29,601 nucleotides of DNA from a virus. Taxonomy: Duplodnaviria; Heunggongvirae; Uroviricota; Caudoviricetes. The stretch lies in the IMG/VR virus record IMGVR_UViG_2657245500_000006, positions 1 to 29,601 of that record. One strand, given 5' to 3'. The position numbers were made by a program. This document shows, in pieces, positions 12,001 through 15,000 of this stretch. Positions within the stretch are counted from its first letter, which is position 1, and every line of letters begins with the position of its first letter.

Positions 12001-15000
12001 GTGGAAAAAGAGCGAAATAAGCCGATTCCACTTCTCAGTAAAATAGATGGCAATGGTAATGTTACAATTACCTCCGCAGACGGCTCAACAACATTTACTG
12101 TTTATGATAAAGAAGTTCATGATTTCATGAAGGCTGCGGCATCAGGGAAAACTGATGATATTAAGACAAACCTCCTGACAGAACAGAATATCCGTGACCT
12201 GTACAACCGCGTTTCAGCAATCCAGCAGATGGAAACCAACGTCGGCCTGGATGAGTATGGAAATGTGGCTGTAACACCGAATGAAATAAAAGAACGCGTA
12301 TCTTTGCAGCGCTATCTGGCATGGGAGTCCGCCAACTCCACCATTGTTGCGAATGAGCTTGAAGCTCAGAAAGGCAAGCTTGATGCTCAGAAAGGCGAGC
12401 TTGAAGCGCAGAAGAAAAATCTTGGTGAACTGACCACGCGTACCGACAAGATTGATGCTGCGGCTGCTGCAACAGCTGCAAAAGTCGAATCCCGCACACT
12501 GGTTGGTGTGAGTTCTGATGGCACCCTGACCCGTGCAGAAGGTGCAAAGAACACCATTTCTGTTAACGATGGTCTGGTGGCCCTGTCTGGTCGTACTGAC
12601 CGTATTGATGCAGCAGTTGGTGCCATTGATGGCCGTGTCACCCGTAACACGCAATCCATTGAGAAAAACAGCAAGGCGATTGCAGCCAATACCCGTACGC
12701 TGCAGCAACATTCAGCACGTCTGGACAGCCAGCAGCGCCAGATTAATGAAAACCACAAGGAAATGAAACGAGCAGCAGCACAGTCTGCGGCCCTGACTGG
12801 TCTGTTCCAGCCGTACAGCGTGGGTAAATTCAACGCGTCAGCAGCGGTGGGTGGTTACAGCGATGAGCAGGCACTGGCAGTGGGTGTGGGTTACCGCTTC
12901 AACGAGCAGACCGCAGCGAAAGCAGGCGTGGCATTCAGTGATGGGGATGCCTCCTGGAACGTTGGTGTGAACTTCGAGTTTTAATTGCTGAAGGTGACAT
13001 GAAGTATGACGGCAGGCACAGGAGTTTTGCCTGCCGTTTTTTTTCATGGGGCATAAAAACAGGAAGGTGCTGCGATGAAGGTAATTCTGGCCACAAGGAA
13101 CCGCTACCTGGAATATGGACTGCAACAGTTGCTGAAGGAACACAGTGTGATACTGGCGAGGGAGTTTTTCCTGCCGGAGAACCGCCGTTATATCCCGGAC
13201 TTTGACGAATCCTGGCTGATAATCAGTGATGGCCTGCTGGGCAGGCTGATGCGCTGTATGTTCCAGGGGCGTCATTTTCTGCAACTGGATGCGGAGTTGC
13301 TCCGTGATGGCGAACAGATAAGTGATGCCATACGCAACGGCGTGTGGACGTATAACAGTGTTGCCCGCCCGCTGACGATGTCAGAGATGGTGGTGATGTT
13401 CGGTTATGTCTACCGCCAGTCGAGACCCTGTCGCCTTGCCAGTGAAATGGGTATCCACACGAAGACGGTGAATACCTTTCTGTATACGGGAATGGCGAAA
13501 AACGGGCTGTATGGTGTGAGCGTCAGACGGCTTGTTGGTGCCTGATGGCGGTCCTGCCGGATGCGCAGAATCTTCTGATAGTTCAGAAGGTGCAGATGAT
13601 GAATAAAGAGAGATGCCGGACAATCGGAAGAAAACGTTACACCACAGGCGCAATGTGCTTCATGCTGTTTGTGTGGCTTGGTGGTGTGCTGGCTCTTGTT
13701 GCTACAGCTGCGGTGGTAATGCAGTAAAAAAAGGGGAGCAACATGCTCCCCGACCAGAAGAAAGACGTTTGATAACAATTAGTGAGTTGTTACGTCTTGT
13801 CCAGAATATCATAGCAACACTCTGTTGCAGTGATACCGATCGCGATTTTAGCGAATTCCATCATAAATCCCCTGATTTTTAAGCCTGAAGCAGTCAAAGG
13901 AATTTCTATGCCCTATATCGATATCACCACGATGCGTGGGATGATGCCGCGCGTTGTGACATCCATGCTGCCCGAGCATTCCGCTGTACTGGCGGAGGAC
14001 TGCCATTTCCGGTTTGGTGTTATTACACCAGAACGTCAGATATCCGGGGTTGAGAAAACATTCACAATTAAGCCAAAAACAATTTTTCATTACCGTGACG
14101 ATTTCTGGTTTGCATGGCCGGATGTGGTGGATGTGATCCGCAGTCCGATCGCTCAGGACCCCCACGGGCGTATTTACTACACTGACGGGCGTTTTCCTAA
14201 AGTGACGGATGCGACCATTGCCACAAAAGGGGACGGGAATCACCCGACATCATCGTATCGTCTTGGGATCCCCGCGCCGACGACAGCTCCTGTCTGTACT
14301 GTCCAGCAGGGCGGTGATGTTTCTGACGATAACCCGAATGATGATGAAACCCGGTTTTATACGGAAACCTTTGTCTCAGATTATGGTGAAGAAGGTCCGC
14401 CAGGTCCGGCGTCTCTGGAGGTAACACTCCGTACTCCGGGAACTGCGGTACAACTGACGCTGGCTCCGGTGCCATTGCAGAATGCCAGTATTAAACGTCG
14501 TCGTATTTATCGTTCTGCATCAGGTGGAGGGGAGGCGGATTTTTTACTTGTGGCTGAACTGGATGCATCCGTGCTCAGTTACACGGACAAAATACCGGCG
14601 AAAAACCTTGGACCTTCGCTGGCGACATGGGATTACCTGCCGCCGCCAGAGAATATGACAGGCCTTTGCCTGATGGCTAACGGTATTGCCGCCGGGTTTG
14701 CCGGTAATGAAGTGATGTTTTCGGAAGCGTATCTGCCGTATGCATGGCCGGAAGTGAATCGTCACACGACGGCAGAAGATATTGTAGCTATCTGTCCGCT
14801 CGGAACGTCACTGGTGGTGGCGACAAAGGGTGAGCCTTATCTGTTCAGTGGTGTATCGCCTTCCACAATTTCCGGCTCCAGAATTCCTTCAATGCAGGCG
14901 TGTCTGAGCAGGCGGAGTATGGTCGCGATGGAGGGCTTTGTGCTGTATGCAGGAACAAATGGCCTGGTGTCTGTTGATGCAAACGGTAATGCCGCTCTGG

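What the first reader, a model, noticed from the sequence alone, without database searches (positions are those of the whole stretch)
13726..13751. Third copy of the A-tract plus GGGGAG/CTCCCC hairpin at the right edge of the eib moron
The stem GGGGAGC/GCTCCCC preceded by AAAAAAA is the same motif as hairpins 1 and 2, about 2.4 kb away and in the same orientation, directly after the stop codon of the small membrane-protein ORF. On the + strand it lacks a U-tract. It may terminate antisense transcription entering the moron from the right, or it may mark the recombination boundaries of the moron: the same hairpin family flanks both ends of the eib-regulator block.
Basis: seen in the sequence. 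Interest (0 to 1): 0.45.

Follow-up and report, generated by a model that had tools for sequence, protein, structure and literature searches.

The report
Leftward transcription terminator after orf-60
The hairpin is an ordinary Rho-independent transcription terminator that reads correctly only on the opposite strand; it always follows the small gene orf-60 and is also present in hundreds of Shiga-toxin phages that have no eib gene, so it is not a scar of the eib insertion.

Summary
A7 + GGGGAGC-AACAT-GCTCCCC sits at 13726-13751 and abuts the orf-60 stop codon. GGGGAG-N3-12-CTCCCC occurs three times in the window, all in one orientation, against 0.01 expected.

On the minus strand it reads as a canonical intrinsic terminator: an 8-bp stem of -15.4 kcal/mol followed by U7. 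The + strand has no U-tract.

The hairpin follows orf-60 in every relative examined except P-EibA. Its loop varies and stem position 7 runs C:G, U·G, U:A. In lambda-like eib prophages it lies 11 nt after the stop codon of a convergent dinI gene. In another prophage it ends a ykgJ-like pseudogene whose roughly 100-nt 3' tail is homologous to window 13752-13852.

The element occurs in 357 of 5426 complete E. coli genomes, mostly eib-less 933W/Sp5-type Stx phages carrying decayed orf-156/orf-60. Hairpins 1-2 occur in only 27 genomes.

Mosaic breakpoints fall within about 100 nt of hairpin 3. The left edge of the eib block is not at hairpins 1-2.

I found no promoter, conserved small ORF, Rfam match or published Hfq peak that would define a leftward RNA here.

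Verdict: an unannotated example of a known kind, of low interest.

The parts
13726..13732 (-). A7 on the + strand, which is the U7 tail of the terminator on the minus strand. It overlaps the orf-60 stop codon TAA (13725-13727).
   Evidence: An A-run of 5-7 is present in all orthologues.
13733..13751 (-). Terminator stem-loop: GGGGAGC(A)-UGU-(U)GCUCCCC on the minus strand, 8 bp, -15.4 kcal/mol.
   Evidence: It is 92% identical to 933W, while the next 50 nt to the right are only 57-60% identical. Stem position 7 is C:G, U·G or U:A in different relatives.
13752..13852 (-). About 100 nt that would lie upstream of the terminator in a leftward RNA. It is homologous to the 3' tail of a leftward ykgJ-like pseudogene in E. 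coli CFIAFB20190157 and diverged (57-74%) from 933W.
13790..13864 (-). Candidate 24-codon ORF (MMEFAKIAIGITATECCYDILDKT) with AGGGGA three nt upstream. Judged not to be a gene.
   Evidence: The C-terminus is not conserved (933W reads ...TETKCLA*; there is no equivalent in CFIAFB). The variants seen are non-synonymous, and one weakens the ribosome-binding site.
13545..13727 (+). orf-60, a small protein with a hydrophobic C-terminal segment. The hairpin directly follows its stop codon in this window and in all relatives examined except P-EibA.
   Evidence: No Pfam match.
It is homologous to 933W L0123 plus an unannotated downstream 933W ORF.
   Evidence: No Pfam match, so a regulatory role is unverified.
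13011..13044 (+). eib's own + strand terminator: GGCAGGCA ... TGCCTGCC followed by T8.
   Evidence: inverted repeat I3. It corresponds to the stem_loop annotated just downstream of eibA in AF151091, 25 nt after the stop codon in both.
11806..12984 (+). eib, a trimeric autotransporter with a YadA anchor domain.
11302..11323 (-). Hairpin 2, a leftward terminator-like hairpin followed by T6 on the minus strand.
   Evidence: The segment 11223-11336 is absent from P-EibA.
11135..11152 (-). Hairpin 1, a leftward terminator-like hairpin followed by T6 on the minus strand.
11006..11023 (-). Hairpin 0, a leftward terminator-like hairpin with a different stem (AGGGGC/GCCCCT). Its A7 run abuts the orf-191 stop codon.
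13908..15533 (+). L0124/ECs1232-like tail gene, which is essential in Sp5. The conserved structural module begins at about 13838.

Best explanation
The hairpin is a leftward-acting (minus-strand) Rho-independent terminator that forms the right-hand end of the orf-156/orf-60 unit. RNA polymerase moving right to left transcribes GGGGAGCAUGUUGCUCCCC followed by U7 and is predicted to release there, before it can run antisense into orf-60, orf-156 and eib. Rightward transcription meets the same stem without a U-tract and should pass; late transcripts in 933W-type phages are Q-antiterminated in any case (established knowledge).

In lambda-like eib prophages the orthologous hairpin lies just after the stop codon of the convergent dinI gene. 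In the 933W-type phage of this window it appears to have been carried along with orf-60 into the middle of the rightward tail operon. There it can only act as an insulator against stray antisense transcription, or it is idle.

Shown: the anatomy, the strand asymmetry, the linkage to orf-60, the conservation and the compensatory change. Inferred: actual termination, and whether any leftward transcript exists in this context.
For: - Terminator anatomy on the minus strand only: 8 pairs, 6 of them G:C, a 3-nt loop and T7. It is the top hit of the scan. Folding gives -15.4 kcal/mol, z = -3.6.
- In seven orthologous contexts the hairpin directly follows the orf-60 stop codon, has an A5-7 run on the + strand and never a T-run on the + strand. 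Loops differ (AACAT, AATAT, AAGTTA, GCAC, TGGTG). Stem position 7 is C:G, U·G or U:A.
- It is a conserved island: 92% identity to 933W, against 57-60% for the 50 nt to its right.
- In PhiR12_2 and strain 2012EL-2448 a DinI-like gene (Pfam DinI, E = 4.5e-16) converges on it, with its stop codon 11 nt from the stem. In CFIAFB20190157 a leftward ykgJ-like pseudogene ends about 100 nt upstream of it, and the homology with the window stops exactly at that stop codon.
- dinI genes of eib-less phages share homology only from the dinI stop codon onward, not the hairpin. The hairpin therefore belongs to the orf-60 side.
- The hairpin and remnants of orf-156/orf-60 are present in eib-less 933W, Sp5 and the O104:H4 phage.
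- The same shape is hugely enriched as an inverted repeat in unrelated viral contigs: at least 119, against 0 for a non-complementary control.
Against: - No termination data were available here.
- In this window no sigma-70-like promoter was found on the minus strand within 1.2 kb upstream; the nearest scan hit is 15041-15012. There is no leftward gene until beyond 22 kb. The terminator may therefore have nothing to stop.
- Conservation rests on few independent lineages and a single covarying pair.
- P-EibA keeps orf-60 without the hairpin, so the hairpin is dispensable for the cassette.
Confidence: 0.7

Rival explanations
1. It is a relic. The hairpin was the terminator of a convergent leftward gene (dinI or ykgJ-like) in a lambda-like ancestor. 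It was carried with orf-156/orf-60 into 933W-type phages and now has no transcript to act on.
For: - No promoter or leftward gene lies upstream in the window.
- Window 13752-13852 is homologous to the 3' tail of a leftward pseudogene elsewhere.
- The neighbouring orf-156 and orf-60 are visibly decaying in 933W and the O104:H4 phage.
- No Hfq-bound RNA is listed at this site in Sakai (Table S2 of PMC4104026).
Against: - The stem and U-run stay intact in all three 933W-type classes while the adjacent sequence has fallen to 57-60% identity.
- The element is kept in 357 genomes.
Confidence: 0.25
2. It is the 3' end of an unrecognised leftward small RNA of roughly 100-140 nt, or of a tiny gene, sitting between the accessory genes and the essential tail gene. 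This would be comparable to PasB or the convergent EcOnc sRNAs.
For: - A terminator plus U7, preceded by a pyrimidine-rich tract UCUUUCUUCU, is the usual Hfq-binding 3' module (established knowledge; sequence).
- The minus-strand RNA folds better than shuffles, z = -3.6 to -5.1.
- An inner stem AACAA/UUGUU in the window corresponds to AAUAA/UUAUU in 933W (my reading of the sequences).
- PasB of EPEC has the same architecture between tail genes I and J (PMC8550237 Table S6).
Against: - No Rfam family matches, even at E <= 10.
- It is not homologous to PasB, which has a clear CTGACT-17-TATAAT promoter that this locus lacks.
- No EcOnc peak is listed at Sakai 1,287,460-1,287,755.
- The upstream folds differ between sequence classes.
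- The 24-codon ORF is not conserved.
Confidence: 0.12
3. The hairpins are recombination boundaries. Repeated copies of one hairpin family flank the eib block and mediate or mark its exchange between phages.
For: - Three same-orientation copies flank eib, orf-156 and orf-60.
- Right-hand homology breaks fall within 0-100 nt of hairpin 3 in four comparisons.
Against: - Hairpin 3 is retained in eib-less phages.
- Left breakpoints lie at about 9735 and 10654, not at hairpins 1-2.
- Hairpins 1-2 occur only with eib (27 genomes), whereas hairpin 3 occurs in 357.
- Similarity between the copies is limited to a 6-bp stem core that arises repeatedly in unrelated phages.
- Breakpoints at gene ends are the general rule of phage mosaicism (established knowledge).
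Confidence: 0.08
4. It acts on the + strand as a 3' stabilising stem-loop for the orf-156/orf-60 (or eib) mRNA after processing or Rho-dependent termination.
For: - The hairpin is always linked to the orf-60 stop codon whatever lies to its right.
- The + strand RNA forms the same -15.4 kcal/mol stem.
Against: - The conserved A-run upstream of the stem has no role in this model, but it is exactly what a minus-strand terminator needs.
- There is no evidence for + strand 3' ends here.
Confidence: 0.05

Closest known systems
Rho-independent (intrinsic) terminators of E. coli and its phages
   Same: A G+C-rich stem of 7-8 bp, a short loop and an immediately following U7 run, in an intergenic position.
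   Different: It points against the direction of every neighbouring gene in this window. It is not bidirectional, because there is no U-run on the + strand.
Terminator of the convergent dinI gene in lambda-like eib prophages (PhiR12_2 PV340550; E. coli 2012EL-2448)
   Same: It is the orthologous hairpin directly after the orf-60 stop codon, in the same orientation and with the same 6-bp core.
   Different: There a DinI-like CDS ends 11 nt upstream of it. In the window the right-hand neighbour is the rightward tail gene L0124.
Moron organisation (promoter, gene, terminator) of lambdoid phages, as described for HK97/HK022 (own knowledge)
   Same: It lies at an accessory-gene site between tail genes, and terminators delimit the inserted genes.
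   Different: The moron's own terminator is the + strand one at 13011-13044. Hairpin 3 faces the other way and lies after two further genes.
PasB sRNA of EPEC E2348/69 (PMC8550237; bioRxiv 10.64898/2026.05.13.724894)
   Same: PasB is a leftward RNA end embedded between rightward tail genes, and its terminator U-run abuts the stop codon of the upstream gene.
   Different: There is no sequence homology. PasB has a consensus-like promoter, northern-blot and RIL-seq support. None of these is available for this locus.
Convergent prophage sRNAs at moron sites: AgvB, AsxR and other EcOnc RNAs (PMC4104026)
   Same: They are convergent to an accessory gene and have a conserved 3' terminator with a more variable 5' part.
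   Different: AgvB (RF02702) and AsxR (RF02703) give no match. No Hfq-CRAC peak is listed at the Sp5 position.

Membership tests
Intrinsic terminator (minus strand) | A stable G+C-rich stem-loop | tested here: met
   8 pairs, 6 of them G:C, -15.4 kcal/mol, z = -3.6.
Intrinsic terminator (minus strand) | A U-tract directly 3' of the stem | tested here: met
   U7 in the window and U5-7 in all orthologues; in PhiR12_2 and 2012EL-2448 one A separates the stem from the U-run.
Intrinsic terminator (minus strand) | It lies at the end of a transcription unit on the same strand | tested here: inconclusive
   Met in PhiR12_2 and 2012EL-2448 (dinI) and in CFIAFB20190157 (ykgJ-like pseudogene). No promoter or gene was found in the window itself.
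Intrinsic terminator (minus strand) | Measured transcript release | not testable with these tools
   This needs Term-seq, 3'-RACE or a reporter assay.
Bidirectional terminator | A U-tract after the stem on both strands | tested here: not met
   The + strand continues GACCAGAAG. No T-run follows the stem on the + strand in any orthologue.
Terminator of the eib moron | Same strand as eib and directly downstream of it | tested here: not met
   eib has its own + strand terminator at 13011-13044. Hairpin 3 is about 700 nt further on and works on the other strand.
Insertion scar or boundary repeat of the eib cassette | Present only where the cassette is present, with junctions at the repeats on both sides | tested here: not met
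   Hairpin 3 is present in eib-less 933W, Sp5 and the O104:H4 phage (357 genomes against 27). Left junctions lie at about 9735 and 10654.
Known prophage sRNA families (AgvB, AsxR, Esr41, STnc100 and others in Rfam) | A covariance-model match | tested here: not met
   No hit at the gathering threshold in the whole window. Nothing on this element at E <= 10 in 10900-14100.
PasB sRNA | Sequence homology to E2348/69 PasB (NC_011601 1466343-1466261) | tested here: not met
   The alignment shows no meaningful similarity.
Hfq-dependent sRNA in general | Its own promoter or processing site, and Hfq binding | tested here: inconclusive
   No promoter-like site was found. No EcOnc entry is listed at the Sp5 position in the published Hfq-CRAC table. 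That screen covered one strain and used peak filters.
Small protein or type I toxin gene | A conserved ORF with a membrane-spanning hydrophobic segment | tested here: not met
   The 24-codon ORF has a hydrophobic run of only about 10 residues. Its C-terminus differs in each class, and the variants seen are non-synonymous.

The most novel reading that the evidence does not exclude
The conserved terminator plus the roughly 100-140 nt to its right could be an unrecognised leftward small RNA of 933W/Sp5/O104:H4-type Stx phages, either stand-alone or a retained 3'-UTR fragment with an Hfq-binding 3' module. It would be expressed from within the late tail operon, analogous to PasB.
Probability: 0.12. 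Interest if true: 0.45.

Novelty: new member of a known kind. Interest (0 to 1): 0.15.

Why it matters
It matters little on its own: this is an unannotated but ordinary terminator.

Three smaller points come out of the analysis:
- The eib "moron" is better described as eib with its own promoter and + strand terminator, followed by a separate orf-156/orf-60 unit that ends in a leftward terminator.
- Medically important Stx phages (933W, Sp5, the O104:H4 phage) carry decayed remnants of that unit. This points to exchange between lambda-like and short-tailed phages at the accessory site next to the tail-fibre genes.
- Strong leftward terminators in this window cluster at accessory-gene sites. Published Term-seq data could test whether they shield lysogen-expressed genes from antisense transcription.

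Tried and rejected
- **Rfam.** The whole window at the gathering threshold and 10900-14100 at E <= 10 gave nothing relevant.
- **Minus-strand ORF MMEFAKIAIGITATECCYDILDKT.** Rejected because it is not conserved.
- **Published RIBOseq small-gene list for Sakai.** It has no entry at 12874xx-12877xx, but the shortest entries I saw in its tables are 93 nt, so this says little about a 24-codon ORF.
- **Promoter search on the minus strand upstream of the hairpin.** No site passed the scan. By eye there is only a TATGAT without a -35 element.
- **PasB.** I fetched it from E2348/69. It is not homologous.
- **HnrS (EcOnc10-12).** It lies in Sp9, Sp10 and Sp12, not at this locus.
- **Northern probes from Tree et al.** Only a weak 17-nt match of the EcOnc53 probe at 18725-18741.
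- **Generic hairpin pattern in viral contigs.** Most matches are unrelated contigs, so the pattern cannot be used to collect homologues.
- **Conserved structure upstream of the terminator.** The folds differ between sequence classes.
- **Pfam on orf-156 and orf-60.** No match, so the "regulator" label is unsupported.

Full report
**Observation**

Window 13726-13751 reads AAAAAAA GGGGAGC AACAT GCTCCCC. The TAA stop codon of the 60-codon ORF 13545-13727 (orf-60 in the P-Eib GenBank records) overlaps the A-run. Two more copies of the same design lie at 11135-11152 and 11303-11322 in the same orientation. GGGGAG-N3-12-CTCCCC occurs exactly three times in the window against 0.01 expected by shuffling. 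The description is accurate and is not a chance pattern.

**Strand**

On the + strand no T-run follows the stem. On the minus strand the sequence is GGGGAGCAUGUUGCUCCCC followed by U7. This is the best terminator-like site found in 9000-16000, with a stem of -15.4 kcal/mol. Hairpins 1 and 2 are terminator-like on the minus strand as well. So is a fourth hairpin with a different stem at 11006-11023, whose A7 run abuts the orf-191 stop codon.

**Context**

The window is a 933W-type (Sepvirinae) prophage carrying eib. Its genes in this region are:
- tail fibre, 8378-10393
- orf-191 (DUF4376), 10405-10998
- an 800-bp spacer holding hairpins 0-2
- eib (YadA anchor), 11806-12984
- eib's own + strand terminator, 13011-13044 (it corresponds to the stem_loop annotated just downstream of eibA in AF151091)
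- orf-156, orf-60 and hairpin 3
- the L0124/ECs1232-like tail gene

The tail gene's real start is the ATG at 13908. It is essential in Sp5 (PMC5155283).

**Phages that lack eib**

933W has the same hairpin with a one-base change in the loop. To its left, L0123 is 54% identical to the N-terminal part of orf-156, and an unannotated ORF is 84% identical to the orf-156 C-terminus. Only the last dozen or so codons of orf-60 remain.

The identity profile between the window and 933W is:
- orf-156 C-terminus: 84-100%
- 13535-13682: deleted in 933W
- orf-60 tail: 84%
- hairpin: 92%
- next 50 nt: 57-60%
- 13801-13825: 74%
- from about 13838 for at least 560 nt: essentially identical (96-100% per 25-nt bin)

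The O104:H4 Stx2 phage has cor, a degenerate orf-60 and then the same hairpin.

The element 13690-13910 is found in 357 of 5426 complete E. coli genomes and in 178 phage records, mostly Stx phages. The region holding hairpins 1-2 is found in only 27 genomes and 8 phage records. Those 8 records are P-EibA and the PhiR5/PhiR12 phages, which carry eib-homologous DNA; I did not check whether eib lies next to it in all 27 genomes. Hairpin 3 is therefore not specific to eib.

**Other eib prophages**

- P-EibA (lambda-like) shares the block from inside orf-191 to exactly the orf-60 stop codon (13727). It has no hairpin and continues with eaaA.
- PhiR12_2 and strain 2012EL-2448 (lambda-like) have eib, orf-156, orf-60 and then GGGGAGT-AAGTTA-ACTCCCC. 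A convergent DinI-like gene follows, with its stop codon 11 nt from the stem.
- P-EibE has GGGGAGC-TGGTG-ACTCCCC, which gives a U·G pair on the minus strand, followed by a truncated dinI.
- CFIAFB20190157 has an 8-bp version with loop GCAC. About 100 nt homologous to window 13752-13852 follows, and the homology ends exactly at the TAA of a leftward ykgJ-like pseudogene.
- dinI genes of eib-less phages share homology only from the dinI stop codon onward, not the hairpin.

Taken together, the hairpin travels with the 3' end of orf-60, whatever lies to its right. Its stem is kept through a C:G / U·G / U:A series while the loop changes freely.

**Mechanism**

The best-supported reading is a leftward intrinsic terminator at the right end of the orf-156/orf-60 unit. 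In lambda-like relatives it lies 11 nt after the stop codon of the convergent dinI gene, where it would end dinI transcription. In the 933W-type context it sits inside the rightward late operon. It is transparent to rightward transcription and can only stop stray antisense RNA, or it is idle. Termination itself and the existence of a leftward transcript are inferred, not shown.

**Is there a leftward RNA or gene here?**

I found no support for one:
- Rfam gives nothing.
- A 24-codon ORF with a ribosome-binding site exists (13864-13790), but its C-terminus differs in every sequence class, and the variants seen are non-synonymous or weaken the ribosome-binding site.
- No promoter-like site lies upstream on the minus strand.
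- The Hfq-CRAC list for Sakai has no entry at the Sp5 position, between ECs_1230 and ECs_1232 at 1,287,460-1,287,755.
- PasB of EPEC is a validated leftward sRNA between tail genes I and J, and its terminator abuts the upstream stop codon, so it is a close architectural analogue. It is not homologous to this element and has a clear promoter.
- The minus-strand RNA folds better than shuffles, but the folds upstream of the terminator differ between classes.

**Are the three hairpins one family?**

This is unresolved. They share a 6-bp core and an A-run. AAAAAGGGGAGC-N5-GCTCCCC occurs in at least 119 viral contigs, and only 10 of the loci fetched in that scan matched window 13640-13910 beyond the hairpin itself. 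A control with a non-complementary second arm gave none. Convergence is as plausible as descent. Hairpins 1 and 2 belong to two diverged tandem units of about 170 nt, and P-EibA lacks the second.

**Verdict**

The antisense-terminator reading is supported by sequence and comparison. The boundary reading holds only in the loose sense that mosaic junctions fall near this gene end. This is an unannotated member of a known kind, and its interest is low.

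Noticed in passing
L002 (933W AF125520) 3638-4034; window 13075-13727: 933W L0123 and an unannotated 33-codon ORF are the two halves of a broken orf-156 (54% and 84% identity). Only the last dozen or so codons of orf-60 remain. Eib-less Stx2 phages therefore carry a decayed copy of the unit that follows eib.
   Followed up: yes
window 11006-11023, 11135-11152, 11302-11323: Three leftward terminator-like hairpins lie in a row within 330 bp between orf-191 and eib. Hairpins 1 and 2 belong to two diverged tandem units of about 170-177 nt that share the 13-mer ACAGAATTTTCGT (11228, 11405). 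P-EibA lacks 11223-11336. A promoter-like site on the minus strand at 11541-11513 could drive a leftward RNA of about 200 nt ending at hairpin 2.
   Followed up: partly
window 13011-13044: eib has its own strong + strand terminator (GGCAGGCA/TGCCTGCC plus T8). The scan missed it because the loop is 9 nt. orf-156 and orf-60 therefore lie outside the eib transcription unit.
   Followed up: partly
window about 13826-13838: There is a sharp step in identity to 933W, from 57-74% on the left to essentially 100% for at least 560 nt on the right. This indicates a recent recombination junction about 85-100 nt to the right of the hairpin.
   Followed up: yes
window 13830 versus 13908; L002 4136: The 933W record starts L0124 at a GTG 78 nt upstream of the ATG that PGAP uses in E. 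coli G1/2 and Sakai. The ATG has an AAAGGAA ribosome-binding site.
   Followed up: partly
L007 (PPwrbA_EC3734 LC645450) about 1668-3162: A 487-codon leftward ORF that looks like a transposase (IS66-like, judged from its sequence only) interrupts the region just upstream of the L0124 homologue, at the equivalent of window about 13853.
   Followed up: no
window 11664-11702: An AT-rich inverted repeat GGAAATTCCGAA ... TTCGGAATTTC lies about 100 nt upstream of eib. By coordinate conversion it corresponds to the stem_loop annotated upstream of eibA in AF151091 and may be a regulatory site.
   Followed up: no
window 18558-18578 (+), 18915-18938 (-), 19066-19089 (-), 18725-18741: The lom gene is followed by a + strand terminator and then two leftward terminator-like hairpins. 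In Sakai the Hfq-bound EcOnc53 maps just after lom, and its northern probe has a 17-nt partial match at 18725-18741. In the scans of the window, the strong leftward terminator-like sites lying between genes are at accessory-gene sites.
   Followed up: partly
window 13752-13765: Directly after the stem the + strand reads GACCAGAAGAAAGA, an A-R-N-like repeat. The minus strand reads UCUUUCUUCUGGUC, a pyrimidine-rich tract before the terminator. It is conserved in the window, O104:H4 and CFIAFB classes, looser in 933W and PhiR12, and absent in P-EibE.
   Followed up: partly
window 12355-12427: There are three 21-nt tandem repeats inside eib (GAGCTTGAAGCTCAGAAAGGC...). I read them as repeats of the coiled-coil stalk.
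   Followed up: no
NZ_CP060083 (E. coli G1/2) 1495520-1503740 and 2549980-2559360: One commensal strain carries at least two 933W-type eib prophages with identical orf-156, orf-60, hairpin 3 and following spacer (through window 13910) but different eib alleles. The hairpin 1-2 region matches at three places in this genome.
   Followed up: partly
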